Shown: in pieces, positions 4,715 to 47,867 of the stretch
Layout: each line of letters begins with the position of its first letter
How positions within the stretch are numbered: position 1 is the first letter of the stretch
NCBI GenBank assembly: GCA_964500205.1
Contig: CAZCNS010000004.1
Location: 98,260 to 162,259, forward strand
Direction of reading: 5' to 3'
Origin: an uncultured Chryseobacterium sp.
GTDB lineage: Bacteria > Bacteroidota > Bacteroidia > UBA10329
Length of the DNA stretch: 64,000 bases
The notes under the pieces: model-generated
What the model was told of the DNA's origin: nothing
The model's database searches: none
Seen by the model: the letters and a program-made list of their open reading frames with translations, nothing else
Position numbers and translations under genes: made by a program

Positions 4715-5260
4715 ATGGACAGCAGCACACTGACAGACGCATTGCAAAGGGCGGACACGCGGGCGCAGCGATGGCTTTACGACACACATGCGTCCGCACT
4801 CTACGCCATCTGTCTGAGGTACATGCCTGACGAGGCCCGCGCTCAAGACTGTCTTCAGGAGACGTTCATCACCATCTACCGCAAGGTGGGAGAGCTGCGT
4901 GAGGCGGTCGCCCTGGAGGGCTGGATGAGGCGCATTACCGTCAACACCTGCCTGATGGCACTCCGCAAGGACGGTAGGCGTGACCTTGGGCTTGACAACC
5001 TTGGTGTAGATGAGCCAGTGGCAATGGACGCAGATGCGGTGTCGGCCATGTCGGCAGACGAACTTTTTACCACCGTCCGTCAACTACCCGATGGGCTGCG
5101 CGAGGTGTTTAACCTCTTCGCCATAGAGGGCCATCCGCATTCGGAGATAGCCACGATGCTCGGCATCTCAGAGTCTAACTCGAAGGTGCGGCTCAACAGA
5201 GCGAGGAGTATTCTGAAGGAAAAACTGGAAAAAATGGGAGTCACCGCCAGCAGCAGGTGA
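4715..5260 (+). CDS. RNA polymerase sigma-70 factor, ECF subfamily
   Basis: Sigma-70 regions 2 and 4 are recognisable (CLRYMPDEARAQDCLQETFITIY ... EIATMLGISESNSKVRLNRAR). The internal ATG at 4715 is preferred over the ORF-table start at 4676. Confidence 0.8.
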   Translation: MDSSTLTDALQRADTRAQRWLYDTHASALYAICLRYMPDEARAQDCLQETFITIYRKVGELREAVALEGWMRRITVNTCLMALRKDGRRDLGLDNLGVDEPVAMDADAVSAMSADELFTTVRQLPDGLREVFNLFAIEGHPHSEIATMLGISESNSKVRLNRARSILKEKLEKMGVTASSR

Positions 5261-5280
5261 TTCCAAAAGATGAGATCGTC

Positions 5281-6645
5281 ATGGAGAGCAAGAACAGCAC
5301 AGCAGAGGAGCAGATGGCCGCGAAGCTTCGCGGGCACAGCGTGGCCCCGCCCCAGGGGGTCTGGACGGGCATCGAAGACAGGCTCGCAGGTGGGAGCAAG
5401 AAGATAGGGCTGATGTGGCTGCCCGATGCCGGTGCCATGGTGCTCTGGCTTACCATGACAGTGGGCTTCCACACGGGAATGCTCGGTTCCTCCGGGCTGT
5501 CGCACGCGAATGGGCCAGTGACAGCGTCTGCTGTGGAAGCAGAGGTCGGTGAGGCAGTCGAAGCCCCGATTCGCCAGTCCGATTTCTCCAAAAGTGAAAA
5601 GGAGACAACTGGCGCATTGAAAGCAGAGTACGCTGACGGGCTGGTGAAAAGCTCTTATTCAAGTAGAAATGAAGCAGCCAGAACAGCGGAATTACCGAGG
5701 GAGGGCAACACAGCTTCCCATTCGCAACTCGAGGCCTCCAAGTCTCAGATGAAGATTGTGGCCGATGTCCCTGCCATGGCCGAAAAGCTCGATTCGGAGG
5801 GGTCGCTGATAGCGGATGCGGCCATGTCCTCTGCGAAGCAGATGTCGGCAGCAAGTGCTGCCGTGCAGATTGAGAAGACCGCTCCCTCACTCATGGGGTG
5901 GAGGCCCCTCAGCCCGATTTTTTCTGGGGAAAGTCCTTTGGAAGAAATAGTAGAGGATGACATGATGGCGGAGCGGAATCCCTTCGCGAAGGCCCTGAGG
6001 CGGCATCAGTTCTTTCTCGGAATCGGTGGCACGGCCAATCTGGTCTCCATTTTCAACCAGAATAACCGCAATGCCTTTGGAGGCCGTGAGTTGCCATACA
6101 AACCCACGTTCGGCTACGCGGGCTATTTGCGCATTGGCTACCGTTATCGCCATCGCTATGGAGTGGAGACGGGGTTCGTCTTCCATAGCAGGCAGGGCCA
6201 GCACTATGAGGGGCGGATCAACAATGCCGTGGCCACTCGGCAGGTGGACATGACATATATGCAGGTGCCGCTGGTATTGCGTTACACATTTGGCAAGACC
6301 TTCTCTAAGAATATGCCCTCACCTTGGGTCATTGGCATCGGGGCGCAGTTCGGATTCCTGACCGCAGCCTCAGAGCAGTTCGAGGGCAACGAGGCATCGT
6401 TTCAAGGAGAATTCTTCCCGGTAGAAGACTATCGCGCCTATCTGCGGCCGATGGAGGTGGCCGGGGTGCTTACCATCGACAAGGAGTTCTATTTCCACAG
6501 GAACATGTTCGTGTCGGTGGGGCTGCGGACCACCATCGGCAGCGACATCAATGCAGAGGGATCGCCAGCCCCCGATGATTACGGCAAGAGCCACAATTTC
6601 ACCTTCGGACTCAACGTGTCATTCAATGGCTTTCTCGAAAGATGA
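5281..6645 (+). CDS. Putative anti-sigma factor fused to a C-terminal outer-membrane beta-barrel (PorT/OMP_b-brl_2-like) domain
   Basis: Lies immediately downstream of the ECF sigma gene with a 4-bp overlap region. N-terminal cytoplasmic segment, then one TM helix (LMWLPDAGAMVLWLTMTVGF), a long Ser/Ala-rich linker, and a C-terminal ~200 aa with alternating aromatic beta-strand pattern ending in ...FGLNVSFNGFLER. Confidence 0.6.
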   Translation: MESKNSTAEEQMAAKLRGHSVAPPQGVWTGIEDRLAGGSKKIGLMWLPDAGAMVLWLTMTVGFHTGMLGSSGLSHANGPVTASAVEAEVGEAVEAPIRQSDFSKSEKETTGALKAEYADGLVKSSYSSRNEAARTAELPREGNTASHSQLEASKSQMKIVADVPAMAEKLDSEGSLIADAAMSSAKQMSAASAAVQIEKTAPSLMGWRPLSPIFSGESPLEEIVEDDMMAERNPFAKALRRHQFFLGIGGTANLVSIFNQNNRNAFGGRELPYKPTFGYAGYLRIGYRYRHRYGVETGFVFHSRQGQHYEGRINNAVATRQVDMTYMQVPLVLRYTFGKTFSKNMPSPWVIGIGAQFGFLTAASEQFEGNEASFQGEFFPVEDYRAYLRPMEVAGVLTIDKEFYFHRNMFVSVGLRTTIGSDINAEGSPAPDDYGKSHNFTFGLNVSFNGFLER

Positions 6646-6695
6646 ACCATCACTGACCGACCACTCTCGTCCCTCGCCCCTCGCCCCTCGTCCCT

Positions 6696-7688
6696 TCACA
6701 AAAGTCCCTTCTCCATCAGCATCTCCAGGATCTGCACCGAGTTGGTGGCTGCGCCCTTGCGAAGATTATCGGAAACAACCCAAAGGTTGATACTGTTCTC
6801 CTCGCTCTCGTCCTTGCGGATGCGGCCCACGAACACCTCGTCCCGTCCCTCAGCGTTCAGCGGCATGGGATAGATGCTCCTTGCAGGGTCGTCCTGCACA
6901 ATGACACCGGGCGAATCAGCAAGTATCTGACGCACTTGGTCCAAGCTCACAGGTTTCGAGAACCGCGCATTCACCGCCTCGCTGTGACCGCCCGTGACGG
7001 GGACGCGTACCGCTGTGGCCGTCACTTTAAGATTCGGCAGCCCCATGATCTTGCGGCTCTCGTTCACCACCTTCATCTCCTCCTTGGTGTATCCGTTCTC
7101 AAGGAACACATCGCACTGCGGGATCACATTGCGGTGAATCGTGTGTGCATACGGGCTGTCACTCACGGTCTCGCCCGACTGCTCACGGTTCAGGGTGTCC
7201 ATGGCATGTTTGCCCGTACCCGTCACTGACTGGTAGGTGCTCACCACCATGCGCTCAAGTCCGAATGCCTTGTGCAGCGGCCACATGGCGACTACGAGCT
7301 GTATGGTCGAGCAGTTCGGATTGGCGATGATGCGGCTCTCGCTGGTCAGTGCATCAGGGTTCACCTCGGGCACCACAAGCGGAATAGCAGGGTCCATGCG
7401 CCATGCCGATGAGTTGTCGATGACGTATGTGCCCACCTCCGCAAACTTCGGTGCCCATTCCAAACTCGTGCCTCCGCCTGCCGAGAACAGTGCCACATCA
7501 GGCCGCAGCGTCACCGCCTGCTTCATCCCGATCACCGTGTACTCCTTTCCCTTGAAAACGACCTTGCTGCCCGCGCTGCGCTCACTGGCTACGGGTATCA
7601 GTTCAGTGCAGGGAATGTTGCGCTCCTCCAGCACTTGCAGCATGATGCGACCTACCATGCCCGTGGCCCCGACAACAGCTATTCTCAT
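6696..7688 (-). CDS. asd: Aspartate-semialdehyde dehydrogenase
   Basis: 330 aa. N-terminal Rossmann motif MRIAVVGATGMVGR and the catalytic region NPNCSTIQLVVAMWPL typical of Asd. Confidence 0.9.
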   Translation of the reverse strand: MRIAVVGATGMVGRIMLQVLEERNIPCTELIPVASERSAGSKVVFKGKEYTVIGMKQAVTLRPDVALFSAGGGTSLEWAPKFAEVGTYVIDNSSAWRMDPAIPLVVPEVNPDALTSESRIIANPNCSTIQLVVAMWPLHKAFGLERMVVSTYQSVTGTGKHAMDTLNREQSGETVSDSPYAHTIHRNVIPQCDVFLENGYTKEEMKVVNESRKIMGLPNLKVTATAVRVPVTGGHSEAVNARFSKPVSLDQVRQILADSPGVIVQDDPARSIYPMPLNAEGRDEVFVGRIRKDESEENSINLWVVSDNLRKGAATNSVQILEMLMEKGLL

Positions 7689-10533: not shown

Positions 10534-10833
10534 AAGTTGTATAGGAGCCACAGAGGCTCATCCCATTACAGGGAGTTCAAAGATGCGGATACTCTCACCG
10601 CATCCACCGCAGCATATTCAGCCCTTTAGGCATGATGCGCACACCGGGTTCGGTAGGGGGCGACATCATCACCATGCTGATCTCTTTGTCGATGGTCACT
10701 TTGCGGATAGTCGGGCGGTTGTAGTTTTTCATGGTGTAAGGTGTACGAAGTTGTAAGGTGCGAGGCTCGGGGTTCATGACACTGACCAACCCGTTGTCTA
10801 TCTCCCCTATTTTTAATTCTTAATTCCTGATTT

Positions 10834-13800
10834 TTAATTGATCACAATCTTCTTGCTCTCCACTCCCTGCTCCGTCTCCACGCGCACCACGTAGATGCCC
10901 GTGGTCACGTTGGTGGCGATGGCCGTGCGTGTGCCGTTCAATGCAGCGGTCTGCACCACGCGGCCCGTCATGTCCATGATGGTCACCGTGCCGCGCTGCT
11001 CCTCGCTCTGGATGATGTTCACGGTGCGGTCGTAGGCGAAAATGTCCGTAGAGACGCGATTCATCGCGTCTCCGTCCATACCCACCACCTGTGCCGAGAA
11101 ATGCAGCACAAAACGGTTCTCGAACGTTCCGCCCTCACTCGTAAAGGTGTAGCTGGGCTCGTTGTCAAGACTTTGGAACGCTCCCGTGCCCAGGTCTTCC
11201 AGCCATGCGCTCACAGGCAGATCGAGCTCTGATGCGTTGATGGTGTACTCGCCTGCGGCCTGCACCCGGATGCCGAGCGGCACACTGGGCTGCGTCTCTG
11301 GGCTGTTGACCCCGTTGATGGCCATGCGCGTGCCCTCCACAATGCTCCAGAGCTGCGGCACCTCGGCAGGGGCCATCTGCTTCTGCGAGTCGTAGAGGTC
11401 GATGCCATTGCTGGCCAGGTCGTTGAAGTGGAGCATCGCCTCATCGGTTTGCGTCCCGTTGGTCAGCGTGAGGCGGATAAGGTCGATCCCATCGCGCAGG
11501 GTCTCGTCAGCGAGGTGGCTGCGCATGTCGTTGTTCATGGCAAGGATGCCCGTGTTGCCATCCTCGTTCACCCGCACCCAGAAGGCCTGCCCGGGGTGGA
11601 CGAACTCCGTTGCGCCCAGCAGCCCTATGCCGATCACGGCATTGTAGGTCGAGAAGACCATGTTGCCGGTCTGCTGCGTGCGGTACCAGATGGTGGGCAG
11701 CAGGTTGATGCTTCCCGCGCTGTAGGCGTCTCCCCAGTTGAGGAAGCTCGGGTAGGGGTTCCCAATGAGGTGGTAACCGCGCTGGCTGTTGGTGGTGCCG
11801 GTGCGGCTCAGGTCTGTGAGGCTCAGGTTGCCTGTGTTGAAGGTGCCGCCTGTGTATTCCACGGTCTCGGTTGCACCGAGGCGGGCGAGGTATCCGCGCA
11901 TGGGGCTTAGGGCGCTCACATCGTCCGTGATCTCGCCCCAGCCGCTGCCGTTGGGCCCGTTGGCCTCGGCCACCTCATCGTGCCCCCAGATGCGGTTGTC
12001 GCCCGCTGCACCGTAGGCCCCGCTGACAGTGCCGCTCACCGTGGGTGCCACGTACCAGTGGCGGCCATCGGGCGTGCCGCCACCGCTGCCCGTCAGGTAC
12101 TGCTGCGCAATGAAGGTGCCGCTGCCGCCCACCGTGCCGAGGGTTATTACGGTGCCGTTGCCCGTGGCATCGCTCTCCAAGGTCATGCTGCCGTTGTTCG
12201 TTACGTTGCCGCTCACCGTCAGCGCCCTGCCCGGCTCTACCACCACCTCGGCCCCCGCATCCACCGTCAGGTTGCGGCATGTGGCAGGGTTCTCCGGTGT
12301 CAGGTCGATGTGTGGCTGGTTCGCGGGGTCGGCTGTGATCAGCACATCATCATCCGCGCCCGGCACCGCGCCCGATGACCAGTTCCCCGCATTGCTCCAG
12401 AGGTTGCTCTCGCTGCCGTCCCAGCCATCGTAGATCCGTACTGTGTAATCCTCCACCTGCCCGAACCCGGAGTTGCCGCACGGGGTATCGTTCGGCCCGA
12501 AGGTCGGGCTGGTGTCATGCAGCCGCACGCGCATCCGGGTGGTGCCTGTGCTCGCATTGGCAGGTATCGCGATCGTGCCCGTGCGCGTGCCCAAGCCCGT
12601 CTGGTCGAACAGCAGCTCGTTCACCTCGTCAAACTCCCCGTCTCCGTTCAGGTCTATCCATATCAGCGTCTGGTCGCTGGAGTATCCGTTGGATATCGTC
12701 ACCGACACAGGATAGCTCGCACCGCGTGCCACCGTGCCTACCAGCCCGGTGTGATTCTCATACCCCCCGGTGGTCGATGTCGTGTTGTCTATTCCCGCGA
12801 ACTGCACCCTGCCTATCTTCTCATACTCGCTGCTGTTCGCACTGGCCGCGCAGTAGCTCACGCACGGGTCGCTGCCTATCGCCACCGCGCCCAGCGAGTG
12901 CCGCAGCGAGCTACGAGGGCCTCCGTCCACCACCGCGTTCATCCGCACCGACTGGCCCTCCGTGAACATGTGCATGCAGCCGTCCACCGTGTAGTCCATG
13001 TAGTTCATGAACATCTCACCGTTGGCATTGCTCCCGCAGGCGTTGTTCGGTCTTCTCGGGAACGCAGGGCAGCCTCCGTTCGATTCCAACTGAGGGGGCG
13101 TGTCGTCCACCAGGTCGTTGCCGCAGGTGGCATCGCCCCAGATATGCCGCAGGTTCAGCCAGTGGCCCACCTCGTGCGTCATCGTCCGGCCCTTGTTGTA
13201 AACAGGGTTGTCGGGGTGGGGCGTCTCTATCGACCCTGTGGTGTAGTACGCGTTCACCACCCCGTCTGTCAGCGCGTTGCCGCCCGGGAACTGCGCATAG
13301 CCCAGCAGGTCATCGCTGGCGTTGAAGCGCACCGTCCACACGTTCAGGTAGTTGTCCCGGTCCCAGATCGTGGCGGGCTTCAGTGTGCTGTTGATCTGCG
13401 TGCGGGTCCAATCCGCCCGGCCCCCGTTCACCCTCACGATCCCGGTCGTGGGCTGGCAGTCGGGCGTGCGCTGCGCCAGAGCGAACTGTATCCTCGTGTT
13501 CGCGGCCGCTGGGGCGAAGGCCCCCGGTATCAGCCCCACATCCGAGTTCAGCAGCGCGAAGTCAGCGTTCATCTGCGCCAGTTGCGCGTGGATGTACACC
13601 TCGTCCAGGTTCTCGCCCGTGCCCACTGCCTGTCCGTTGTGTACGATGTGGAATACCACCGGTATCACCACCACATCCTCCTCGCCCGACCGCTGCGACA
13701 GGTCATACTGTGCCGTGTACTCCTCCAGGTCGTCCAGCACCCGCTGCATGTCCGGGTTCTGCTGCAGTTGCTCTGCCAGTTCCGTCATCGTGCCGCAGGT

Positions 13801-13872
13801 GCGCTGTGCCCAAGCACCGGTCGTCATCAGCAGCAGCAGGAGGGAGGTAAGGGTCCTTTTCATCCTTGTCAT
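10834..13872 (-). CDS. M43 (pappalysin/ulilysin-like) zinc metalloprotease with GEVED domain and T9SS type-A C-terminal sorting domain
   Basis: Metzincin motif HEVGHWLNLRH. GEVED-like GFGQVEDYTVRIYDG. C-terminal GIYVVRVETEQGVESKKIVIN is typical of Por-secretion CTDs. Start chosen at MTRMKRT with signal peptide (13872); the ORF-table start at 14013 lacks a signal peptide. Confidence 0.8.
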   Translation of the reverse strand: MTRMKRTLTSLLLLLMTTGAWAQRTCGTMTELAEQLQQNPDMQRVLDDLEEYTAQYDLSQRSGEEDVVVIPVVFHIVHNGQAVGTGENLDEVYIHAQLAQMNADFALLNSDVGLIPGAFAPAAANTRIQFALAQRTPDCQPTTGIVRVNGGRADWTRTQINSTLKPATIWDRDNYLNVWTVRFNASDDLLGYAQFPGGNALTDGVVNAYYTTGSIETPHPDNPVYNKGRTMTHEVGHWLNLRHIWGDATCGNDLVDDTPPQLESNGGCPAFPRRPNNACGSNANGEMFMNYMDYTVDGCMHMFTEGQSVRMNAVVDGGPRSSLRHSLGAVAIGSDPCVSYCAASANSSEYEKIGRVQFAGIDNTTSTTGGYENHTGLVGTVARGASYPVSVTISNGYSSDQTLIWIDLNGDGEFDEVNELLFDQTGLGTRTGTIAIPANASTGTTRMRVRLHDTSPTFGPNDTPCGNSGFGQVEDYTVRIYDGWDGSESNLWSNAGNWSSGAVPGADDDVLITADPANQPHIDLTPENPATCRNLTVDAGAEVVVEPGRALTVSGNVTNNGSMTLESDATGNGTVITLGTVGGSGTFIAQQYLTGSGGGTPDGRHWYVAPTVSGTVSGAYGAAGDNRIWGHDEVAEANGPNGSGWGEITDDVSALSPMRGYLARLGATETVEYTGGTFNTGNLSLTDLSRTGTTNSQRGYHLIGNPYPSFLNWGDAYSAGSINLLPTIWYRTQQTGNMVFSTYNAVIGIGLLGATEFVHPGQAFWVRVNEDGNTGILAMNNDMRSHLADETLRDGIDLIRLTLTNGTQTDEAMLHFNDLASNGIDLYDSQKQMAPAEVPQLWSIVEGTRMAINGVNSPETQPSVPLGIRVQAAGEYTINASELDLPVSAWLEDLGTGAFQSLDNEPSYTFTSEGGTFENRFVLHFSAQVVGMDGDAMNRVSTDIFAYDRTVNIIQSEEQRGTVTIMDMTGRVVQTAALNGTRTAIATNVTTGIYVVRVETEQGVESKKIVIN

Positions 13873-13966
13873 GGTTGGTTTGCGGTTGCAAAGTGCGGAA
13901 AATTCCATCACAGCACCACGCCATTCCGACAAACCCCACCAAATCACCTCCCGCCACCCGAACCCG

Positions 13967-14182
13967 TCACTGCGAGCGCAGCGAAGCAGTCTCCCCGTTA
14001 CCCTCCTCCGCAACCATCACCCCCTCCGCGCAGTAGTCGCGCAGCACCTCGTTTAGCAGGTCAGCCGTAAGGTCAGTGCTGCCGGCCAGTATGGTGCGGA
14101 ACACCTCCAAGCGGTCATCCACGCTCAGGGTGTTCAGCCTTTCATCATCGCGGAAGAAGGACATGAAGTCGTCTCGGGTCAT
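13967..14182 (-). CDS. Hypothetical small protein (72 aa from ATG; the longer ORF would need a TTG start)
   Basis: GC-rich ORF abutting the low-GC HNH islet, with acidic composition. No recognisable family. Confidence 0.3.
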   Translation of the reverse strand: MTRDDFMSFFRDDERLNTLSVDDRLEVFRTILAGSTDLTADLLNEVLRDYCAEGVMVAEEGNGETASLRSQ

Positions 14183-14223: not shown

Positions 14224-14478
14224 TCAACTTGCAATTCCGTATGAACTCTTCGTGAAGTGTATCCCTTCAATTGCCACAACTGCTTCATAGCGTGAAAGGG
14301 TCTCTTCATCAGAGGCATACTCTTCTAACAAGGAATCACATATGTAGACCTGAATGGCCTCCAAGGACGTCCTTCCTCTACTGTTGCCAATATGTCTTCC
14401 GTACTTGAAGATCGCGAACAGCGTGAAGCATTCGAGAGTTTTATGGGATGGACGAATGAATCGAGATTTGTTCGTCAT
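14224..14478 (-). CDS. Hypothetical small protein, 4-bp ATGA overlap with upstream HNH gene
   Basis: 84 aa ORF in a low-GC segment. Its start overlaps the HNH stop, which suggests translational coupling. Could equally be a gene remnant. Confidence 0.3.
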   Translation of the reverse strand: MTNKSRFIRPSHKTLECFTLFAIFKYGRHIGNSRGRTSLEAIQVYICDSLLEEYASDEETLSRYEAVVAIEGIHFTKSSYGIAS

Positions 14479-15257
14479 TGTTGAAATCGGTTATCGTAAT
14501 GCTCCTTCAGAAACTCTTTATCAGGCCAAAACTTCTTCGGCTCCTGAATACGCTTTCCTTCATACTGAAAGAATAATTCCTCCAGTTTACTTGGCTCACC
14601 ATAGCCTTTCAACTTGGGTGAGACCTTAATGATGTAGTCAGGCGTGATAGAGATCAGCCCTTGCTCATAGGCTTTGTCATGCAGGGCGTTGATCGCAATG
14701 CCGTTGTGTGGGTTCATCCTGTTCTTCTCATCATCTGCCCAACGCTTGATGTGACCCGCAACCAAGAGTTCAGGTTTGCTGATACCCGTGATGCAGCACG
14801 TGCCATCATAGGCTGAGAGCACCATTTTCCGGAAGAATGACTGATTCACCCGCATCTTCACCACCCTTTCACGCTCCTCTCCTCCTTTACTGAGGATAGC
14901 ATCGAGGTCAGGCTCATCTGCAAGCACATCTTCAATGTTGCGAAGCTCTTTTTGGGCCCGCAGCAGTTCACTCTCAAAGGCTACGCTCTCAATATTACCA
15001 TAGAACTCATCCCATATCTCCCTGTCCAACTTGCTTGCGTTCGTAGCACCTTTTACGCCCCGTGCTTGAAGCATGGGGTCGAAGCTTGCAAGATTCCCCA
15101 GTTTCAACCCAACGGACGAAGGCGTCCTGCCGATCAGGTTGGCAAGTGCGATCACTTCAGAGTTGTTCTTATGAAACTTGCCAAACGGCAGCTTAGAATA
15201 CAGGTTGATTGCCAGTATTAACTCCTCTCTTGTCCAAAGTTTCTGTCCTGCTTTCAT
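14475..15257 (-). CDS. HNH endonuclease (HNH_2 / putative restriction-endonuclease-like family), solitary
   Basis: 260 aa. C-terminal HNH core ...YDGTCCITGISKPELLVAGHIKRW...NPHNGIAINALHDKAYEQGLI. Local GC is roughly 44% versus ~60% for the flanks. Confidence 0.75.
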   Translation of the reverse strand: MKAGQKLWTREELILAINLYSKLPFGKFHKNNSEVIALANLIGRTPSSVGLKLGNLASFDPMLQARGVKGATNASKLDREIWDEFYGNIESVAFESELLRAQKELRNIEDVLADEPDLDAILSKGGEERERVVKMRVNQSFFRKMVLSAYDGTCCITGISKPELLVAGHIKRWADDEKNRMNPHNGIAINALHDKAYEQGLISITPDYIIKVSPKLKGYGEPSKLEELFFQYEGKRIQEPKKFWPDKEFLKEHYDNRFQQ

Positions 15258-15718: not shown

Positions 15719-15955
15719 TCAGCGCGTGCGGATAGGCACGAAGCTTCTTCTTTTCTGCCATCTGCACGTGCAGAAGGGCACAAAGGGTTCCCTTTTATAC
15801 AATCTGCACGTGCGGAAGGGCACAAAGGGTTTCCTTTTATACAATCTGTACTTGCAGAAGGGCACAAAGGGTTTCCTTTTATACAATCTGCACGTGCGGA
15901 AGGACACAAAGGGTTTCCTTTTAAACAATCTGCACGTGCTGATAATCGGAAAGCT
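15719..15955. repeat. Tandem direct repeat array, ~42-bp unit x ~5 (tctgcacgtgcRgaagggcacaaagggtttccttttatacaa)
   Basis: Read directly from the sequence. Four near-identical contiguous copies (15767-15935) plus degenerate partial copies on each side. No spacers, so it is not CRISPR. Each unit contains the CACGTG palindrome. Confidence 0.9.
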
Positions 15956-16227
15956 TTTGCTTTGATATGATATGCACGGGCGGATGGGTAGCAGGTATCT
16001 TTTTCGGGAGAATGGTAGCGTGCGGATGAGGGAGGGCCGGCAGGCCGCCCGCAGGGAAGGTGAACTGATGGTGGAGGAGCAAGAGCTTGTCGGAATCGTG
16101 TAAGGACATCCCGCAGATGGAGATACGTGATACACGTATGTGCAAAAGACGGGCGATAAAGGCAATAAAAGTTACTAAAATAAATGATCCGCAAAAATCT
16201 CGTGTTGATGTATTTCAATATGCAATC

Positions 16228-16277: not shown

Positions 16278-17249
16278 ATGAGCGACACATCCTGGCATTA
16301 CCTGAGCAACCAGTTTGAAACGGCCACGCGGGGCAGTTTCAAGCGGACCAACATCCTGAACAACGACCACCTGAGCAAGCTGAACAGCGAGGCGGCCGAC
16401 CCTGACATGGCGGCCCTGTCAGCCCGAACGGCCCCGCTGAGCGCGGCTTTCAGTGCGGCCTACAGCAACTACATCATGATAAACGGCACCTATAAGGGCC
16501 ACACCCAGCTGGTGGACAACCTGCTGCTTGAACTGAGCAGTCAGAAGATCAAGCAGTGGGACATTCAGGTACAGGTGCAGCATCTGGAGGGCACTCCTAC
16601 TTATATGATGATATTGCCCAACAGGCGCGGGCCTTTTCAGGAAGGCACGAAGGACGACCGTCTGAGTGCGGTGGAGGCTTTGGCCGAGGCACTGCTGGCC
16701 TATCCGGCCCTTGCGGCCACACAGGCTGATGTGGACAGCTTCGCCACGCAGCTTCGCACGGCCCGCGACAACCAGCAGCAGAAGGAGCAGCTCGCGGCCA
16801 TGGCGAGCGACCAGCTGGAAGTGGCACGCAAGGCACTCTGCACCATGATGTACGGCAACCTCGGGGTGCTGATGGACAAGTACCGAGACACGCCCGACAT
16901 GATCGAGAACTTCTGGCAGCTGGACCTGATAAGGCGGACGGGGCAGGGAAACGATGATGACGACCTGCCACAGAACGGCATCCGCATAGCAGGGACGGTG
17001 CGCTCGCAGAACGGCAACATGGGCATTCCCAACGCACTGGTGCGGGCCTACAACGCCATGCAGGGCCCAGGGGCAGGCACCATGGAGGTATTCTCCGGTG
17101 CGGACGGATCATACCTTCTTGCGGTGGATGACCTTCCGGAGGCCATCATGCTGGTGATCGAGGTATCGGCCGCGGGCTATCCGTCTCAGAGCAGGAACCT
17201 GAACGTATCGCCCGGTCAGACCTACGAGGGCGAGGATTTCTATCTCTGA
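16278..17249 (+). CDS. Hypothetical protein with C-terminal carboxypeptidase-regulatory-like beta-sandwich domain
   Basis: Start placed at MSDTSWHY downstream of the -7 motif. No signal peptide. C-terminal GIRIAGTVRSQNGN...GADGSYLL pattern. Confidence 0.5.
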   Translation: MSDTSWHYLSNQFETATRGSFKRTNILNNDHLSKLNSEAADPDMAALSARTAPLSAAFSAAYSNYIMINGTYKGHTQLVDNLLLELSSQKIKQWDIQVQVQHLEGTPTYMMILPNRRGPFQEGTKDDRLSAVEALAEALLAYPALAATQADVDSFATQLRTARDNQQQKEQLAAMASDQLEVARKALCTMMYGNLGVLMDKYRDTPDMIENFWQLDLIRRTGQGNDDDDLPQNGIRIAGTVRSQNGNMGIPNALVRAYNAMQGPGAGTMEVFSGADGSYLLAVDDLPEAIMLVIEVSAAGYPSQSRNLNVSPGQTYEGEDFYL

Positions 17250-17450
17250 AGACAACGCCCTTGTGTGCCCAGAGGGCCGTGCTTCCGAATGGGGGCGCGG
17301 CCTTTTTTCATTTCCACAGGGGCATCAGCGGCCCTCGTCTCTCGTCCCCCGTCCCTTCGTTGAGCGAAGCGAACTCCCGCCCAAGCGGGACACCCAATCG
17401 CAAATCGCAAATCGTTAATCGTTCTTCGCCAATCCCTCGCCCCTCGCCCC

Positions 17451-18245
17451 TCAATCCAAAAACCCCCTCACCGCCCTCATAAAACCCTCCGCATCCTCTG
17501 CGTGCAGCCAGTGGCCCGCCTCCAAGGCGTGGAACTGTGCGTTGGGGAAAAGCTCCCGGATCCCCGCCTCGTCCTCCGGCAGGATGTACCGCGACCGCGT
17601 GCCACGGATGAAGAGGGCCGGCACCTCGCTGCCATGCGGCACCGGCAGACCCATCTCTCCGATGTCCATCGCCAGCACATCGAGGTTGAAACGCCACGCG
17701 TAGCAAGGCTCACCGTCCGCGTTCTTCCCCCGGTAGATGTTCTTGGTGAGGAACAGCACCACATCGCGCTCCTCTATGAACCGCGACAACTCCTCCTCGG
17801 CCTCACTGCGCGAGGCCACGTTCGGCAGGTCTATCGCCTGCATCGAGCGGATGATGAGGTCGTGGTGTATCGGATACGCCTTCACGCCCATGTCGGCCAC
17901 GATGAGCCGGCTCACCAGCTCGGGGTAAGCTGCCGCGAAGCGCATGGCCGTCTTGCCGCCCATGCTGTGGCCTATCACCACCGCGTCCGCGATGTCGTGG
18001 TCTGTGAAGAAGCGGTGCAGGTCCTCTACCATGCCCGCGTAGGTGTGCGTGTCCGTATGGGGCGAGTGCCCGTGGTTGCGCTGGTCCACGGCATAGACGT
18101 GGTAATGCTCGCCCAGCGTTCTGGCAATGCCCGCCCAGTTGTCCAACGACCCGAACAGCCCGTGCAGGATCACCAATGGCCTCCCCGAGCCGTATTCCTT
18201 ATAGTTCAGTGCTACAGTCTCCATGCCCGCAAAGGTCGTGAGCAT
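17451..18245 (-). CDS. Alpha/beta hydrolase (esterase YbfF-like)
   Basis: HGLFGS oxyanion region and GHSMGG nucleophile elbow. Its start overlaps the toxin stop, giving a TGATG coupling sequence. Confidence 0.8.
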   Translation of the reverse strand: MLTTFAGMETVALNYKEYGSGRPLVILHGLFGSLDNWAGIARTLGEHYHVYAVDQRNHGHSPHTDTHTYAGMVEDLHRFFTDHDIADAVVIGHSMGGKTAMRFAAAYPELVSRLIVADMGVKAYPIHHDLIIRSMQAIDLPNVASRSEAEEELSRFIEERDVVLFLTKNIYRGKNADGEPCYAWRFNLDVLAMDIGEMGLPVPHGSEVPALFIRGTRSRYILPEDEAGIRELFPNAQFHALEAGHWLHAEDAEGFMRAVRGFLD

Positions 18246-18598
18246 CAGTCTTCTTCCCGGAAGTACATCGAATCGGGACGCATTCTCGTGGGAAAGAAAT
18301 CAGTCACCTGAACGGTCATGAGTCTGTCATCGGAGAAGTACAAGATTTTCACCTCGAAATGACGAGTCTCTCTATGCAGTATGTATCTGGGTTCAAGTTC
18401 ATCATGCTCAAGGAATGATTCTTTTGCACCCCTATTGGGCATGATGGCAAGAGAGTCCACGTTGTTCAAAATGGACCCGAGTATCTCGACCGCCCGATTC
18501 TCTGAGAAATTCTTTAGCAGATATGGAATGATAGTGTCTCGGAGCCTTGTTCTCGCAGTCTCCGATATCAAGACGCGGTACCTGTCTTGCGTATCCAT
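18245..18598 (-). CDS. Type II toxin, RelE/ParE superfamily (ParE-like)
   Basis: 117 aa, overlapping the upstream small antitoxin gene by about 30 bp. Shows the ParE-like pattern ...AxxDLxxIxxYL ... MPNRGAKE ... RYILHRETRHFEVKILYF. Confidence 0.6.
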   Translation of the reverse strand: MDTQDRYRVLISETARTRLRDTIIPYLLKNFSENRAVEILGSILNNVDSLAIMPNRGAKESFLEHDELEPRYILHRETRHFEVKILYFSDDRLMTVQVTDFFPTRMRPDSMYFREED

Positions 18599-18789
18599 CG
18601 GTCACAGTCTTTTCGCAACTCGTCTAACGTTACAGTTCTACCGTTCGCAATGTCATCGAGTGATTCCTCAAAACGGGCCTGCATCTCAGCCTTCATAAGC
18701 ATCTCATCTATCTGGTCGAGAAGACGTTCGCTTTTCACCGCAAGGACTCGCTGAGAAAGTTCCAGCTGTCGGTTGTTTGTTGCATTCAT
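18568..18789 (-). CDS. Antitoxin, putative addiction-module component (TIGR02574-like)
   Basis: 73 aa from the internal ATG (MNATNNRQLELSQRVLAVKSERLLDQIDEMLMKAEMQARFEESLDD...). Helical, overlaps the toxin gene, and lies in a low-GC segment. Confidence 0.55.
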   Translation of the reverse strand: MNATNNRQLELSQRVLAVKSERLLDQIDEMLMKAEMQARFEESLDDIANGRTVTLDELRKDCDRWIRKTGTAS

Positions 18790-18967
18790 TTGAATCGGAT
18801 AAGCAATACAAAAATACAAAGCCATACTGTGCGCGGTCAGGGTGGAACATGTCACTGCTCAATACCGGTCTCTGTCCTCCGTCCGTTGAACGCAGTGAAA
18901 TCCCGCGTCTGCGGGATCCCTCGTCCCCCGTCCCCCGTCCCTCGTCCCCATCAACAATCAACAATCA

Positions 18968-20407
18968 TCATTTCAAAAACTCCTTGAACCACAGCCCTGT
19001 GTCCTTCAGGATCCGCTGCTGCGTCTCGAAGTCCACATGCACCAGTCCGAAGCGGGTGCGGTAGCCCTCGGCCCACTCGAAGTTGTCGAGCAGCGTCCAG
19101 CAGAAGTAGCCGTTCACGTTCACGCCCTCGCGCTTGGCCCGCAGCACCTCGCGGAGGTAGTCCTGATAGAATTTCGTGCGCTGCGCGTCATGCACCCGGC
19201 CGTTTTCCACCGTGTCGGGGAAGGCGGCACCGTTCTCCGTCACGATGATGTTCTTGATGCCCTCATACTTGTCGAAGTACTTCAGCATCTTGTAGATGCC
19301 CATCGGATGCACCTCCCAGTCCATGTCTGTGATCTCGGGCTGCGGCTTGAGCTTCTTGGGCTTCATGGGCGAACCCTTCACAAAGGGGATGATGCCGTTG
19401 CCCTTCACCACCGAGCGGGTGTAGTTCTGCAGGCCGTAGAAGTCGAAGTCGAACTTCACCTTGTCCATGTCGCCCGGCTGTATCCAGTTCTCCAGCTTGC
19501 GCAGCATCGGCAGGTCGTCTATCGGGTAGCCGAGGCCCTGCGGTGGTTCGATGTACAGGCGGTTGAAGAGCACGTCCAACCTTTTCACCGCCTCATCATG
19601 CACCCGCTTGCCGTTCACCGGCTCTGCCGATGAGCACGAGAAAGTGGTGCCGATGAAGGCGTCAGGCACATTTGCGCGGATGATGCGCCCGCCCTCGGCC
19701 TGGCACAGCGTGGCGTGGTGTACGGTGGGGATGAAGTTCCTCGGCCATTTCTTGCCCGGTGCGTGGATGCCCAGCAGGTAGCCCACTGCCGTGAAGGCCA
19801 TCGGCTCGTTCAGCACCATCCAGTTCTTCACCTTGTCGCCATAGGTCTTGGTCACCAGCTCGGCATACTCGCTGAACCAGCCCACCACATCGCGGTTCTG
19901 CCAGCCGCCCTTGTCCTCCAGTGCCTGTGGCAGGTCCCAGTGGTAGAGCGTGATCCAAGGCTGCACCCCGTTCTCAAGGCAGGTATCGATCACGCGGTGG
20001 TAGAAGTCGATGCCCTTCTGGTTCACCTGACCCGTGCCTTGCGGTATCAGCCGCGACCACGCGGTCGAGAACCGGAACACGTCCATGTTCATCTCCTTCA
20101 CGAAGGCGATGTCCGTGGGGTATCGGTTGTAGAAGTCGCAGCTCACGTCCCCGTTCTCGTTGTTGTCGATCTTGCCGCGCTTGTGCGAGAAGGTGTCCCA
20201 CACCGAGGGGCCTTTGCCGTCAGCATTCCATGCCCCTTCTATCTGATAGGCGGCCGTGGCCACGCCCCAGAGGAAGTCCTTGCCGAAATCGGCAGCCGTG
20301 AAATCGAGTGTCGGCACCGCAAAGGGGTTCATTCCCTTGGCGTAAGGGGCCAGTGCCATACCGGCTGTGGCAAGTCCGAGCCGTTTGAGGTGGTCGCGTC
20401 TGTTCAT
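18968..20407 (-). CDS. GH1 beta-glucosidase with Tat signal
   Basis: Tat-type N-terminus MNRRDHLKRLGLATAGMA. GH1 signatures LNEP (acid/base) and ITENG (nucleophile). Confidence 0.9.
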   Translation of the reverse strand: MNRRDHLKRLGLATAGMALAPYAKGMNPFAVPTLDFTAADFGKDFLWGVATAAYQIEGAWNADGKGPSVWDTFSHKRGKIDNNENGDVSCDFYNRYPTDIAFVKEMNMDVFRFSTAWSRLIPQGTGQVNQKGIDFYHRVIDTCLENGVQPWITLYHWDLPQALEDKGGWQNRDVVGWFSEYAELVTKTYGDKVKNWMVLNEPMAFTAVGYLLGIHAPGKKWPRNFIPTVHHATLCQAEGGRIIRANVPDAFIGTTFSCSSAEPVNGKRVHDEAVKRLDVLFNRLYIEPPQGLGYPIDDLPMLRKLENWIQPGDMDKVKFDFDFYGLQNYTRSVVKGNGIIPFVKGSPMKPKKLKPQPEITDMDWEVHPMGIYKMLKYFDKYEGIKNIIVTENGAAFPDTVENGRVHDAQRTKFYQDYLREVLRAKREGVNVNGYFCWTLLDNFEWAEGYRTRFGLVHVDFETQQRILKDTGLWFKEFLK

Positions 20408-26984: not shown

Positions 26985-27005
26985 GAAGCCAACAAATGGC
27001 TCAGT

Positions 27006-27431
27006 TCATTTGAACATGTCCTCAAATTCTGCTTTGGTCAGAATATTCAGTCGTTTGAACTTTTCTTCGAGACGGGCTTTCTCCTGAAGAATGTGTCTGT
27101 CCCCACTTGTTATAAAGCCGCTGTTGGTCTGGAGGGCAAGGGCGACCACATAATCATCGTCCCTATCGGCAGGGATATACCTTTTGATGGGCGGCTTGAG
27201 TGCGAACGGGATGGTGTTGTCTCGGATGAAGCGCAGTGCATAGCTCCTATTCACACCGTACTTCTCAAGGTGCGGATAAGCGAGCACCCTGCGAATTTCG
27301 GTCAGCAGTTCCTCACAGCAGAAAATTGCAATTCGATGTTCGGCAATGATCTGCAACAGGGTCTCTTCCTGCCTTCCGATGAGGTAACTAACCCATACGT
27401 TTGCATCCAACACGAACCTGTCCTTACGCAT
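27006..27431 (-). CDS. PIN-domain toxin (TIGR00305-like toxin-antitoxin PIN family)
   Basis: About 141 aa from the internal ATG MRKDRFVLDANVWVSYL. Acidic PIN residues are present. Its start overlaps the upstream small gene. Confidence 0.65.
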   Translation of the reverse strand: MRKDRFVLDANVWVSYLIGRQEETLLQIIAEHRIAIFCCEELLTEIRRVLAYPHLEKYGVNRSYALRFIRDNTIPFALKPPIKRYIPADRDDDYVVALALQTNSGFITSGDRHILQEKARLEEKFKRLNILTKAEFEDMFK

Positions 27432-27642
27432 CCGCTTGGCGCGACAGGTGTTTGATACGGTCAATCTCTTCCAATGAAGGCGCGCTCAGACCTTTGGGCA
27501 TAGCTGTTCTGTCAGGGATGCCATCACTCAGGAGCTTCCTCGCACGGAGGCTTATAAGCAGGGCCTGCTGCTGCTCATTGCTCATGGCTTTCAGTTCAAC
27601 CATCAGCTCCTTGAGCATCATATCAGTATCAGAGGTGGGCAT
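27424..27642 (-). CDS. Putative antitoxin partner of the PIN toxin
   Basis: 72 aa small helical protein whose 3' end overlaps the PIN gene start, as is typical for TA operons. No family assigned. Confidence 0.45.
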   Translation of the reverse strand: MPTSDTDMMLKELMVELKAMSNEQQQALLISLRARKLLSDGIPDRTAMPKGLSAPSLEEIDRIKHLSRQADA

Positions 27643-33526: not shown

Positions 33527-33644
33527 TTGTGAAGTGATTTTTTAGCATTTAAGGATGAAGGAAATGGGACGGGGGACGAGGGACGAAGGACGAGAGTGCG
33601 CGGTACGAACCATTTTCAATTTTCAATTTTCCATTCACTGAGTT

Positions 33645-34555: not shown

Positions 34556-34658
34556 AACTGAAACTGAAAGATGGGAATAGGGTTGGAAATCACTGGATAT
34601 TTTCTGCTCCCCTTGCCCCATTCGTAAATTCGACCCGCACGTGCGGGACTCGTAATTC

Positions 34659-43224: not shown

Positions 43225-43352
43225 TCGCTTTTCGCCTTTCGCTCTTCGCGGAAAAGGCACTGGTTTTTCGGTTGTGCTTCTGCAAACATTTTTCTTCGAA
43301 TCTCTGTGTGCTCAATGGTTCGGTGGCGAACAGTGAACAGCGAACGGCTTTC

Positions 43353-44579: not shown

Positions 44580-44760
44580 AAGCTTTTAGCTGCAAGCCGC
44601 AAGCGGGAGGAAGCTTCAAGCTTCAAGCTTCTGGCTTCAAGCGATGGGCGCATGTTACATTCGTTTCTTGATGAACGGCTTATCATGGGTGCTTGGTGTC
44701 TTGCTTGTAGCTTGAGGCTAAAGGCTTGCAGCTACATATTTGAAGCTAACGGCTTGCAGC

Positions 44761-45138: not shown

Positions 45139-45254
45139 GTTTCGATGATTTAGAGTTGTTCAACAAATGTATTTCCCCCACCACATTACCCTTGCGGTCT
45201 TCGCTTCGCTTCACGTGGCGCTTGAAGCTTGCGGCTTATGGCTTGCAGCTTCGC

Positions 45255-46070: not shown

Positions 46071-46209
46071 CTTATTTTGAGCTAAATGCTAATGGCTACG
46101 TTCCTATATCTATCTGCTTGTGGCCCCGCTCTGCGGGATTTCGCTTCTCTCAACTTGCTGCTTATGGCTTTCATTGCTTGCGGCTTGTAGCTAATGGCTT
46201 GCGGCTTTC

Positions 46210-47864: not shown

Positions 47865-47867
47865 GTC

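What the first reader, a model, noticed from the sequence alone, without database searches (positions are those of the whole stretch)
6665..6696. Dispersed family of tandem GGGGACGAG-type G-rich repeats placed on the sense strand of 3' UTRs (locus 1: asd)
The string ctcgtccctcgcccctcgcccctcgtccc lies exactly between the convergent anti-sigma/OMP and asd genes. Its reverse complement, GGGACGAG-GGGCGAG-GGGCGAG-GGACGAG, falls in the 3' UTR of asd. Closely related arrays occur at 17332-17360 plus 17431-17452 (3' UTR of the minus-strand hydrolase), 18917-18949 (3' UTR of the beta-glucosidase) and 33566-33596 (sense strand, ccmB-ccmC spacer). In all five cases the G-rich version is on the transcribed strand downstream of a gene. 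Each has at least three or four G3-5 tracts, which gives G-quadruplex potential. Alternatively they are sites for an RNA-binding protein, or non-canonical terminators. I do not recognise this as a described Bacteroidota element.
Basis: seen in the sequence. Interest (0 to 1): 0.6.

Follow-up and report, generated by a model that had tools for sequence, protein, structure and literature searches.

The report
G-rich seven-base repeats at gene ends
These are short tandem arrays of a G-rich seven-base unit (GGGRCGR) sitting against gene ends, a new sequence family of a repeat class already described in Xanthomonas and Nostoc whose function is still unknown, so the finding is real but only moderately new.

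Summary
Five arrays of a GGGRCGR heptamer lie in four intergenic regions, G-rich on the strand of the gene whose stop codon they touch (13 two-unit matches against 0.5 expected). They are a subset of a wider pattern. Period-7 arrays with many different units fill this genome's intergenic DNA: 9 strict arrays, all intergenic, against 0.3 expected.

Two of the G arrays flank a conserved 33-nt two-hairpin core, which also turns up in many phyla.

GGGRCGR arrays occur widely in metagenomes and viral contigs. There, the 5' end of the G strand abuts the neighbouring ORF, and inverted pairs are always convergent (24:0). These are the properties published for GGGAATC/GGGGAYT repeats by Rehm et al. 2015.

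Close relatives show that the arrays grew in place from a GGGAC seed, are gained and lost, and drift without keeping their G tracts. One array lies inside the ccm operon, so they are not terminators. Only 2 of the 5 have four G3 tracts.

Verdict: a new member of a known class of G4-capable heptamer simple-sequence repeats. They are probably slippage products kept only where they are tolerated. Interest is moderate.

The parts
6666..6695 (-). G-rich heptamer array, locus 1 (GGGACGA GGGGCGA GGGGCGA GGGACGA). It starts 1 nt after the asd stop codon and lies 20 nt from the stop of the convergent OMP gene.
   Evidence: An identical copy is in Logan contig L001.
17332..17356 (-). G-rich heptamer array, locus 2a (GGGACGG GGGACGA GAGACGA GGG). 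It lies on the 5' side of core copy A as read on the + strand.
17434..17452 (-). G-rich heptamer array, locus 2b (TGA-GGGGCGA-GGGGCGA-GGG). It overlaps the stop codon of the a/b-hydrolase gene 17451-18245.
18917..18949 (-). G-rich heptamer array, locus 3 (4.7 units). It lies 18 nt after the GH1 stop, and that gap is filled by a TGATTGT array.
33566..33594 (+). G-rich heptamer array, locus 4 (GGGACGG GGGACGA GGGACGA AGGACGA). It lies inside the ccm operon, between ccmB and ccmC.
   Evidence: Its ortholog in L360 has 4 point changes, and it is absent from L358 and L359.
17359..17391 (+). Core copy A: GTTGAGCGAAGCGAACTCCCGC-CCAA-GCGGGAC. It has two mini-hairpins.
18885..18916 (+). Core copy B: GTTGAACGCAGTGAAATCCCGC-GTCT-GCGGGA. 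It directly abuts G array 3, and degenerate C-rich units (18870-18884) lie on its other side.
46124..46154 (-). Core copy C. It sits inside AAGCNNN-type heptamer arrays (46071-46123 and 46155-46209) between the LolA-like and TetR genes.
17392..17424 (.). AATCGCA/AATCGTT heptamer array between core A and G array 2b.
18950..18967 (-). TGATTGT heptamer array (ATCAACA on +). It begins at the GH1 stop codon.
33612..33635 (+). ATTTTCA heptamer array just upstream of ccmC. It is identical in L360.
10808..10833 (.). ATTCTTA-type heptamer array abutting the stop of the M43 peptidase gene 10834-14013 (-).
43325..43349 (.). GCGAACA heptamer array abutting the stop of the FtsX/MacB permease gene 43353-44579 (-). 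The same unit occurs next to asd in L241.
44588..44639 (.). AAGCTTC / AAGCCGC heptamer arrays immediately upstream of the start of gene 43353-44579 (-).
45199..45254 (.). CTTCGCT / TTGCGGC-type heptamer arrays abutting the stop of the LolA-like gene 45255-46070 (-).

Best explanation
The arrays are intergenic simple-sequence repeats of a 7-nt G-rich unit (GGGRCGR). They form one unit family among several heptamer arrays in a Flavobacteriales-like (Bacteroidota) genome. They belong to the class of G4-capable heptameric repeats described as GGGAATC in Xanthomonas and GGGGAYT in Nostoc.

Shown:
- They arise in place. A pre-existing GGGAC motif in the ccmB-ccmC spacer of relatives is multiplied in the window lineage.
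- They are gained and lost between close relatives.
- They then drift by point mutation without preserving their G tracts.
- They sit with the 5' end of the G strand against the neighbouring ORF.

Inferred:
- Units are added by slipped-strand replication, for which a 7-nt register is favoured (the proposal of Mrazek 2007, as cited in PMC4679880 and PMC4692102).
- Arrays persist only where the transcript tolerates them. G-rich RNA is harmless just after a stop codon, and C-rich RNA is harmless just before a start codon. G-rich RNA over a ribosome-binding site, or C-rich and Rho-attracting RNA just after a stop, would be removed by selection.
- Any effect they have acts through nucleic-acid structure at the gene boundary: a G-rich or G4 cap, or a long hairpin when two arrays converge. 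It is neither sequence-specific nor essential, and they are not transcription terminators.
For: Period 7 is the dominant repeat period. It gives 8 runs against 0-3 for other periods. Nine strict arrays are all intergenic, against 0.3 expected.

Many unit sequences occur in the same genome. In other contigs, patchworks with other heptamers lie near 13-15% of G arrays.

The class properties match Rehm et al. 2015. The 5' end of the G strand is closer to the neighbouring ORF 56:24, for both ORF orientations. Stop adjacency is 15:2 and 21:0. Convergent inverted pairs are 16:0 and 8:0.

Gain and loss: the asd 3' end carries arrays in the window and in L241 (91% aa identity), but none in L243 (89%) or L244 (82%). 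The ccm spacers carry arrays in the window and L360, but not in L358 or L359. Those two carry the putative seed CCAATGGGACTG instead.

Near-neutral drift: there are 4 substitutions in the 28-nt array between the window and L360. They break and make G tracts, and the two CcmB proteins are 98% identical.

Only 2 of 5 arrays have four G3 tracts.

The position inside the ccm operon, and before a Shine-Dalgarno and ATG in phages, argues against termination.
Against: In one family of 8 related viral contigs, a four-unit array between a stop codon and AGGAGG-N6-ATG is 100% conserved. The upstream gene varies at about 15% of columns and the stop codon itself switches between TAA and TGA. That hints at purifying selection.

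Chains of G3 tracts peak at four in metagenome and viral arrays, as Rehm et al. report, although my search pattern favours four.

A filter model does not by itself explain why arrays abut the ORF within 0-7 nt. Nor does it explain why C-then-G pairs are never seen at convergent gene ends, where Rho loading should be harmless.

Slippage was not observed directly: the window/L360 comparison shows no change in unit number.
Confidence: 0.6

Rival explanations
1. Functional G-quadruplex element. In the sense orientation, the nascent or mature RNA (or the non-template DNA) folds into a G4 right after the stop codon. The G4 then acts as a barrier to 3'-to-5' exonucleases, as a pause or R-loop site, or as a ribosome-sensitive switch that couples translation of the next gene.
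For: Arrays start 0-7 nt after Pfam-verified genes on the G strand. Four tracts is the commonest chain length. A four-unit array between a stop codon and a Shine-Dalgarno sequence is perfectly conserved in 8 phage relatives. ViennaRNA with G-quadruplex energies predicts a G4 for loci 1 and 3. Related units form G4 in vitro by CD, and four units are preferred in Xanthomonas and Nostoc (PMC4692102).
Against: Three of the five window arrays have only three G3 tracts. The ccmB-ccmC array has three G3 tracts in both the window and L360, at different positions, so the G tracts are not conserved. About 43% of arrays in co-directional spacers are antisense. In Xanthomonas RNA-seq the C-rich strand is transcribed slightly more often. 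Non-G heptamer arrays occupy the same stop-adjacent positions in this window, so G4 cannot be the general reason for the placement.
Confidence: 0.2
2. The C-rich strand is the functional one. Read antisense, (CYCGYCC)n is a C-rich, G-poor Rho-loading (rut-like) site placed at the edge of a gene. It would stop convergent or antisense transcription before it enters that gene.
For: At locus 1, the OMP transcript would carry about 80 nt of C-rich, G-poor RNA starting 20 nt after its stop. No hairpin terminator exists in that spacer. Arrays abut the gene they would protect. In convergent pairs, each incoming transcript meets the C-rich array last, just before the opposing gene.
Against: In pairs, the G and C arrays would base-pair in the transcript and hide the C-rich tract. 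At locus 2, a canonical terminator at 17271-17306 already stops the + strand gene before the arrays. Arrays are only 20-35 nt long, which is short for a rut site. Nothing in the data tests Rho directly.
Confidence: 0.07
3. The arrays are phased binding sites for a single-strand nucleic-acid-binding protein that covers about 7 nt per domain (cold-shock, S1 or CsrA-type). MacGregor proposed this for TAACTGA repeats.
For: The 7-nt period is strict, the arrays lie in transcribed gene-proximal positions, and there is precedent in the discussion of PMC4679880.
Against: One genome carries at least eight unrelated unit sequences, which argues against a sequence-specific reader. Units drift freely. No candidate protein is linked to the arrays.
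Confidence: 0.05
4. The heptamer arrays are by-products or landing pads of the 33-nt two-hairpin core element. They would be, for example, amplified target-site duplications or footprints left by repeated insertion and excision.
For: In the window, two G arrays and one AAGC-type array flank core copies. In Bacteroidota MAG loci the core sits inside heptamer or octamer arrays that carry the same unit on both sides. In L048 (sequence), taking out a 30-nt core restores the array's register exactly, by my reading of the sequence.
Against: None of the 230 metagenome and viral loci with GGGRCGR arrays contains the core. Most window arrays have no core. In non-Bacteroidota genomes the core occurs without arrays. 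The ccmB-ccmC array grew from a local seed with no core present.
Confidence: 0.05

Closest known systems
G-rich, quadruplex-forming heptameric repeats GGGAATC (Xanthomonas campestris / X. axonopodis) and GGGGA(C/T)T (Nostoc PCC 7120); Rehm, Wurmthaler, Li, Frickey & Hartig, PLoS One 2015 (PMC4692102)
   Same: Both have a 7-nt unit with a G3-4 tract and are about 90% intergenic, with 2 to more than 10 units and four the commonest. The 5' end of the G strand lies much closer to the neighbouring ORF, whichever way that ORF points. In practice this means within 50 bp after a stop on the coding strand, or within 50 bp before a start on the non-coding strand. Both form frequent convergent inverted pairs, sit next to housekeeping genes of all classes, and vary in length and presence between relatives. 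Function is unknown in both.
   Different: The unit sequence differs (GGGRCGR, loop RCGR). The hosts differ: a Flavobacteriales-like bacterium, a Rhodanobacteraceae-like gammaproteobacterium, many unassigned metagenome contigs and viral contigs. In this window the arrays are few, short and mixed with non-G heptamer arrays, and two flank a conserved hairpin core. No biophysical or transcript data exist for this unit.
Cyanobacterial STRR (short tandemly repeated repetitive) heptanucleotide sequences. Also the small dispersed repeats (SDR) embedded in them (Mazel 1990; Elhai et al. 2008, Genome Res 18:1484). Both are cited from my own knowledge; the Elhai reference appears in the reference list of PMC3116915, and the paper itself was not held.
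   Same: Several heptamer unit families occur per genome in intergenic patchworks. A very small conserved hairpin element (21-33 nt) is nested inside the arrays.
   Different: The phylum differs, as do the units and the core sequence.
TAACTGA heptamer direct repeats of Beggiatoaceae, Cyanobacteria and five Bacteroidetes (MacGregor 2015, PMC4679880)
   Same: Intergenic heptamer arrays, also reported in Flavobacteriia (Gramella, Aequorivita). There the same spacers hold other heptamer repeats, and relatives lack them.
   Different: TAACTGA is AT-rich, carries stop codons in all frames, and lies mostly just upstream of start codons in the forward orientation. It has no G4 potential.
REP/BIME elements of enterobacteria
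   Same: Abundant short intergenic or intercistronic elements that often lie just after stop codons. They can stabilise upstream mRNA (textbook knowledge).
   Different: REPs are imperfect palindromes mobilised by RAYT transposases, not tandem heptamers. No palindrome exists within single arrays here, and no associated transposase was found.

Membership tests
G-rich G4-capable heptameric SSR class (Rehm et al. 2015) | Tandem arrays (2 units or more) of a 7-nt unit containing a G3-4 tract | tested here: met
   TRF finds period 7 with 2.7-4.7 copies at all five sites. The unit is GGGRCGR.
G-rich G4-capable heptameric SSR class (Rehm et al. 2015) | Strong over-representation in non-coding DNA | tested here: met
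   All 5 G arrays and all 9 strict period-7 arrays are intergenic, although intergenic DNA is about 13% of the window.
G-rich G4-capable heptameric SSR class (Rehm et al. 2015) | The 5' end of the G strand is closer to the neighbouring ORF than the 3' end, whatever the ORF orientation | tested here: met
   The count is 56 to 24 over 81 arrays with both neighbours. Median distances are 7 nt (same strand) and 29.5 nt (opposite strand), against 112-153 nt on the 3' side. Window loci 1, 2b and 3 abut stops at 0-18 nt. My gene calls are heuristic.
G-rich G4-capable heptameric SSR class (Rehm et al. 2015) | Paired arrays occur in convergent orientation | tested here: met
   G-then-C pairs outnumber C-then-G pairs 16 to 0 in metagenome loci and 8 to 0 in viral loci. 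There is no such pair in the window itself.
G-rich G4-capable heptameric SSR class (Rehm et al. 2015) | Preference for four units, i.e. four G tracts | tested here: inconclusive
   The five window segments have 5, 3, 3, 6 and 3 G3 tracts. The mode is four in 255 metagenome and viral arrays, but the 3-units-plus-G search pattern under-samples three-tract arrays.
G-rich G4-capable heptameric SSR class (Rehm et al. 2015) | G4 formation shown in vitro (CD, K+ dependence) | not testable with these tools
   Only prediction is available. ViennaRNA with G-quadruplex energies folds a G4 at loci 1 and 3 only.
G-rich G4-capable heptameric SSR class (Rehm et al. 2015) | Unit sequence GGGAATC or GGGGAYT | tested here: not met
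   The unit here is GGGRCGR. The strings GGGACGA and GGGGCGA do not occur in the paper. This is the same class but a different sequence family.
Intrinsic (Rho-independent) terminator | GC-rich hairpin followed by a U tract, at the end of a transcription unit | tested here: not met
   The consensus scan finds a terminator at 17271-17306 but none at the arrays. Single arrays hold no inverted repeat and no T run. Locus 4 lies inside the ccmBCDEF operon.
Canonical putative quadruplex sequence (G3+ N1-7)x4 | Four G3+ tracts with loops of 1-7 nt | tested here: inconclusive
   Met at loci 1 and 3. Not met at loci 2a, 2b and 4.
Cyanobacterial STRR heptamers | Several heptamer unit families in tandem arrays in the intergenic DNA of one genome | tested here: met
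   At least eight different units occur in the window. The named STRR units and the cyanobacterial host are not matched, so this is a resemblance and not membership.
REP / BIME | Imperfect palindromic unit with a conserved 5' tetranucleotide, and an associated RAYT transposase | tested here: not met
   The arrays are direct repeats. All-against-all clustering of ORFs around 120 core loci finds only generic families such as kinases and ABC ATPases.
Rfam RNA families | Match to a curated covariance model | tested here: not met
   The only match in the window at gathering threshold is a tRNA. Nothing relevant appears at E up to 10 in 17200-19000.

The most novel reading that the evidence does not exclude
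The heptamer arrays and the 33-nt two-hairpin core (GTTGAGCG-N-AGCGAAATCCCGC-loop-GCGGGR) would be two faces of one undescribed system. The core would be an ultra-small mobile or structured element, far below MITE size, present in many copies in at least eight phylum-level groups. It nests in heptamer or octamer arrays and may seed them, and it can sit in frame inside genes as the peptide VERSEIP. The G-rich arrays would then be gene-boundary elements under selection, as the perfectly conserved phage array suggests, rather than neutral microsatellites.
Probability: 0.12. Interest if true: 0.75.

Novelty: new member of a known kind. Interest (0 to 1): 0.4.

Why it matters
G-rich heptamer repeats at gene boundaries have been characterised in detail only in Xanthomonas and Nostoc, and their role is unresolved.

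This work shows a second unit family with the same positional rules in a Bacteroidota genome, a gammaproteobacterial lineage and viral contigs. Inverted pairs are strictly convergent, 24:0. The rules therefore belong to the repeat class and not to one lineage, and they call for a general explanation: either growth polarity or selection at the RNA level.

The relatives compared here also give a natural series from seed motif to array to drifting array. That series makes the neutral-versus-functional question testable.

In practice, these arrays explain some odd C-terminal extensions in gene calls. One example is the asd homologues ending in ...RGEGQGT.

Tried and rejected
- Terminator reading: rejected, because there is no hairpin or U tract and the arrays sit inside an operon or before an RBS.
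- Known RNA family: none in Rfam.
- CRISPR-like array: rejected, because the units are contiguous with no spacers.
- Link between G arrays and the hairpin core outside the window: none in 230 loci.
- A protein partner for the core: ORF clustering around 120 loci gave only common families.
- Shine-Dalgarno mimicry (GAGG within each unit): noted from the phage case but set aside. Bacteroidia largely initiate translation without SD (my own knowledge), and arrays also occur at convergent gene ends.
- TA target-site idea for the array's 5' junction: only 14 of 141 junctions are preceded by TA.
- Replication-strand explanation of polarity: rejected, because the two members of a convergent pair share a replication direction but have opposite G strands.
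- Literature search by raw heptamer strings: only primer noise. Search by core strings: nothing relevant.
- Elhai 2008 and Mrazek 2007 could not be opened.
- My first stop-to-stop gene caller put 65 of 144 arrays inside ORFs and mis-called GC-rich shadow frames. Later versions trim starts but remain heuristic.
- The four-tract preference could not be tested fairly, because the collection scans needed at least 3 units plus a G.
- The source assembly (an NCBI contig of 315 kb) could not be retrieved, so no whole-genome census was possible.
Full report
**1. The observation**

The string is at 6665-6696. It lies in the 50-nt spacer between a gene for an OMP_b-brl_2 protein (5257-6645, +) and asd (6696-7688, -). 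Both genes are confirmed by Pfam. On the asd strand it reads TGA-A-GGGACGA-GGGGCGA-GGGGCGA-GGGACGA.

- 17332-17356 and 17434-17452 lie after the a/b-hydrolase gene 17451-18245 (-). The second overlaps its TGA.
- 18917-18949 lies after the GH1 gene 18968-20407 (-).
- 33566-33594 lies between ccmB and ccmC, G-rich on +.

A two-unit pattern with up to one mismatch gives 13 matches against 0.48 expected. The family is real and not due to chance.

Three of the five arrays lie between convergent genes. There, 'sense strand' is decided only by which stop codon the array touches.

**2. The arrays are part of something larger in the window**

TRF and my own lag analysis show that period 7 is the preferred repeat period of this sequence. 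It gives 8 runs, against 0-3 for periods 4-12. By a stricter measure there are 9 arrays, all intergenic, against 0.3 expected, although only about 13% of the window is intergenic.

The units are diverse: AATCGCA, TGATTGT, ATTTTCA, GCGAACA, AAGCTTC, TTGCGGC and ATTCTTA, besides GGGRCGR. Most of these arrays also touch a stop codon. Examples are GH1, the FtsX/MacB permease, the LolA-like protein, TetR and the M43 peptidase. One array touches a start codon (44588-44639).

Stop-adjacency is therefore not special to the G-rich unit.

**3. A conserved core**

Two G arrays, and one AAGC-type array, flank a 31-33 nt element: GTTGAGCG-N-AGCGAAATCCCGC-loop-GCGGGR. Its copies are at 17359-17391 (+), 18885-18916 (+) and 46124-46154 (-). 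That is 3 matches against 0.01 expected.

By record titles, these come from Bacteroidota (several orders), Ignavibacteria, Desulfobacterota, Zixibacteria, Poribacteria, Nitrospinaceae, Fimbriimonadaceae, Opitutales and others.

Over 122 hits:
- The R and Y positions of RCG-N-AGY covary: GC 107, AT 9, GT 4, AC 2. About one AT would be expected if the positions were independent.
- The middle N is free.
- 95 of 119 hits carry GCGGG 2-14 nt downstream, although that was not part of the search pattern.

So the core has two small hairpins. The first has the GCGNAGC form known as a very stable DNA mini-hairpin (my own knowledge).

In Bacteroidota MAGs the core sits inside heptamer or octamer arrays that carry the same unit on both sides. 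In one MAG it lies in frame, translated as VERSEIP, in two ORFs that carry HATPase_c; one also has HisKA.

Its orientation relative to genes is only weakly biased, 26:16. No Rfam family, no paper in the library and no recurrent neighbouring protein matches it. A covariance model finds only the three full copies in the window.

The core is absent from all 230 metagenome and viral loci that carry GGGRCGR arrays. I therefore treat core and G arrays as separate things that share intergenic space in this lineage.

**4. The G-rich family elsewhere**

It also found 110 viral contigs. One locus, carrying DnaJ, belongs to a Rhodanobacteraceae-like gammaproteobacterium.

The window itself is Flavobacteriales-like. 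Its best named asd and ccmB homologues are Flavobacteriales MAGs at 72-77% identity, and it carries T9SS sorting domains.

*Polarity*
- A credible ORF stops within 10 nt before the array on the G strand versus the C strand 15:2 in metagenomes (p=0.002).
- The same count is 21:0 in viral contigs, and 24:1 within 25 nt.
- Nine of ten such upstream ORFs are full-length Pfam families (aminotransferase, aldehyde dehydrogenase, ADH, DnaJ, radical SAM, Mrp/ParA and others). Only two of nine C-strand candidates are real.
- Inverted pairs within 200 nt are always G-then-C: 16:0 and 8:0. This result needs no gene calls.

*No overall preference for the sense strand.* With start-trimmed gene calls, co-directional spacers hold the G strand in sense 37 times and antisense 28 times. 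What holds is that the 5' end of the G strand is nearer to its neighbouring ORF than the 3' end, 56:24 (p=0.0008). The median is 7 nt from a stop for same-strand neighbours and 29.5 nt from a start for opposite-strand neighbours.

**5. This is a described class**

Rehm et al. 2015 (PMC4692102) report the following for GGGAATC in Xanthomonas and GGGGAYT in Nostoc:
- 89-93% are intergenic in the two xanthomonads, and four units are preferred.
- CD gives evidence for G4.
- Repeats lie 'almost exclusively' closer to the 5' neighbouring ORF (28 nt against 160 nt), irrespective of its orientation.
- They lie within 50 bp of the stop on the coding strand, or within 50 bp upstream of a start on the non-coding strand.
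- There are 70-75 pairs in convergent orientation.
- Roughly equal shares lie on the coding and non-coding strands between aligned ORFs.
- Length varies between species.
- No function has been found.

Every positional property I measured agrees with this list. The unit GGGRCGR is not mentioned there. MacGregor 2015 (PMC4679880) documents other heptamer arrays in Flavobacteriia.

The kind, however, is known.

**6. How the arrays arise and evolve**

*asd.* The window and L241 (91% aa) carry G arrays directly after the asd coding sequence. In L241 the stop is lost, and the annotated protein ends in ...RGEGQGT. L243 (89%) and L244 (82%) have none, and have no period-7 arrays in 18-21 kb.

*ccmB-ccmC spacer*:
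- L358 (94%) and L359 (88%) have a spacer of about 58-59 nt (from the gene calls) without repeats. It contains CCAATGGGACTG.
- The window and L360 (98%) have, at the corresponding place, AAATGGGACGG GGGACGA GGGACGA AGGACGA, followed by an ATTTTCA array.

I read this as growth in place from a GGGAC seed.

Between the window and L360 the array keeps its length but differs at 4 of 28 positions: GGGACGA GGTACGA GGGACAC GGGACGA in L360. The rate is similar to that of the unconstrained spacer around it. Each version has only three G3 tracts, at different places.

The ccmC-ccmD and ccmD-ccmE spacers show the same lineage-specific gain of repeats.

The ccm gene order is conserved, so this array lies inside an operon.

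**7. Tests of function**

*G4.* Only loci 1 and 3 have four G3 tracts and a predicted G4. The peak at four tracts in the large sets is compromised by the search pattern.

*Terminator.* No hairpin or U tract lies at the arrays, whereas a canonical terminator exists nearby at 17271-17306. The operon position argues against termination too. So does a family of 8 viral contigs, where the order is stop, 4 nt, four units, AGGAGG, 6 nt, ATG.

In that phage family the array is 100% conserved. The upstream gene varies at about 15% of columns, and the stop codon alternates between TAA and TGA. This is the best hint that some arrays are under constraint.

**8. Conclusion**

The finding is a new unit family of the known class of G-rich, G4-capable heptamer simple-sequence repeats. 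It sits within a genome whose spacers are generally colonised by heptamer arrays and by a small hairpin core.

- Most likely (0.6): the arrays are slippage-type repeats that grow from local seeds. They survive only in positions and orientations where the transcript tolerates them, and have at most a modest structural effect at the gene boundary.
- Possible (0.2): a genuinely functional G4 or RNA-structure element.
- Minor alternatives: a Rho-loading role for the C strand, phased protein binding, and origin from the core element.

The polarity (5' anchoring, and convergent pairs 24:0) is robust but unexplained, here as in the literature.

Noticed in passing
window 17359-17391 (+), 18885-18916 (+), 46124-46154 (-); loci L002-L120: A 31-33 nt two-hairpin element, GTTGAGCG-N-AGCGAAATCCCGC-loop-GCGGGR. 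The first hairpin shows R/Y covariation. In Bacteroidota it is nested in heptamer or octamer arrays. There is no Rfam or literature match. It may be an undescribed miniature dispersed element.
   Followed up: partly
L005 (core at 96-117, +) and L025 (core at 5398-5419, -), both from MAG CAZOAL01: The core lies in frame inside two ORFs that carry HATPase_c (the L025 ORF also HisKA). It is translated as VERSEIP and lies upstream of those domains. L025 carries a second, diverged copy (VERNEIR) right behind it.
   Followed up: partly
window 47826-47867 and 48718-48759: A perfect 42-nt inverted repeat, each arm itself a hairpin (CCCCCTCTCCTTGGGAGAGGGG). The pair brackets exactly one a/b-hydrolase gene (47868-48617). 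It looks like a cassette or an invertible or mobile unit.
   Followed up: partly
window 15725-15984: A 42-bp tandem repeat, 4.3 copies at 92% identity, containing the palindrome TCTGCACGTGCAGA. It lies in a low-GC stretch (14-16 kb, GC 0.50) next to an HNH_2 endonuclease gene (14475-15257). It could be iterons or a mobile-element end.
   Followed up: no
L241 3745-3775 (and L242); proteins P0001-P0004: A different small repeat, GGGATCCTTCGACAAGCTCAGGACAGGCC, lies between asd and its G array. With the stop codon lost, asd is annotated with tails such as ...ILRQAQDRPRGEGQGT. P0001 and P0002 end in PSTSSGQA. Repeat-encoded C-terminal extensions are entering protein databases.
   Followed up: partly
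window 6646-6695 versus L241, L243 and L244: Synteny breaks exactly at the asd 3' end. Relatives have a 65-aa membrane protein gene downstream, whereas the window has a convergent ECF-sigma / OMP unit. The G array sits at the breakpoint.
   Followed up: no
L134 254-281; L153 5928-6057; viral loci L265, L267, L294, L318: GGGRCGR arrays also occur inside apparent coding sequence as in-frame low-complexity inserts (for example ...KRKGTRGEGRGTRDEGK...). Unit number varies between related phages, from 28 nt to more than 64 nt.
   Followed up: partly
window 34553-34569 and 34617-34658: A TGAAAC hexamer array lies just after the small ORF between ccmC and ccmE (CcmD_alt in the L360 gene calls), and a hairpin CCCGCACGTGCGGG flanked by ATTCGTA-type heptamers lies just before ccmE. 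Both are shared with L360 and absent from L358.
   Followed up: partly
window 26985-29105 versus L360: About 2.1 kb of the window, including the ORFs 27006-27464 (-) and 27868-29076 (+), has no counterpart in the 90-94% identical relative L360. This is an indel between close relatives.
   Followed up: no
window 30685-31199: 87/174-bp tandem repeats lie inside the large ORF 29743-31797. By the TRF consensus they are a coding repeat.
   Followed up: no
L263, L293, L126, L159 and other loci: Other heptamer units lie within 150 nt of GGGRCGR arrays. They include Nostoc-type GGGGACT/GGGGATT, plus GGCAAGG, GGTTTGC and AGAGGTT. Patchworks of heptamer families are therefore common beyond this window.
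   Followed up: no
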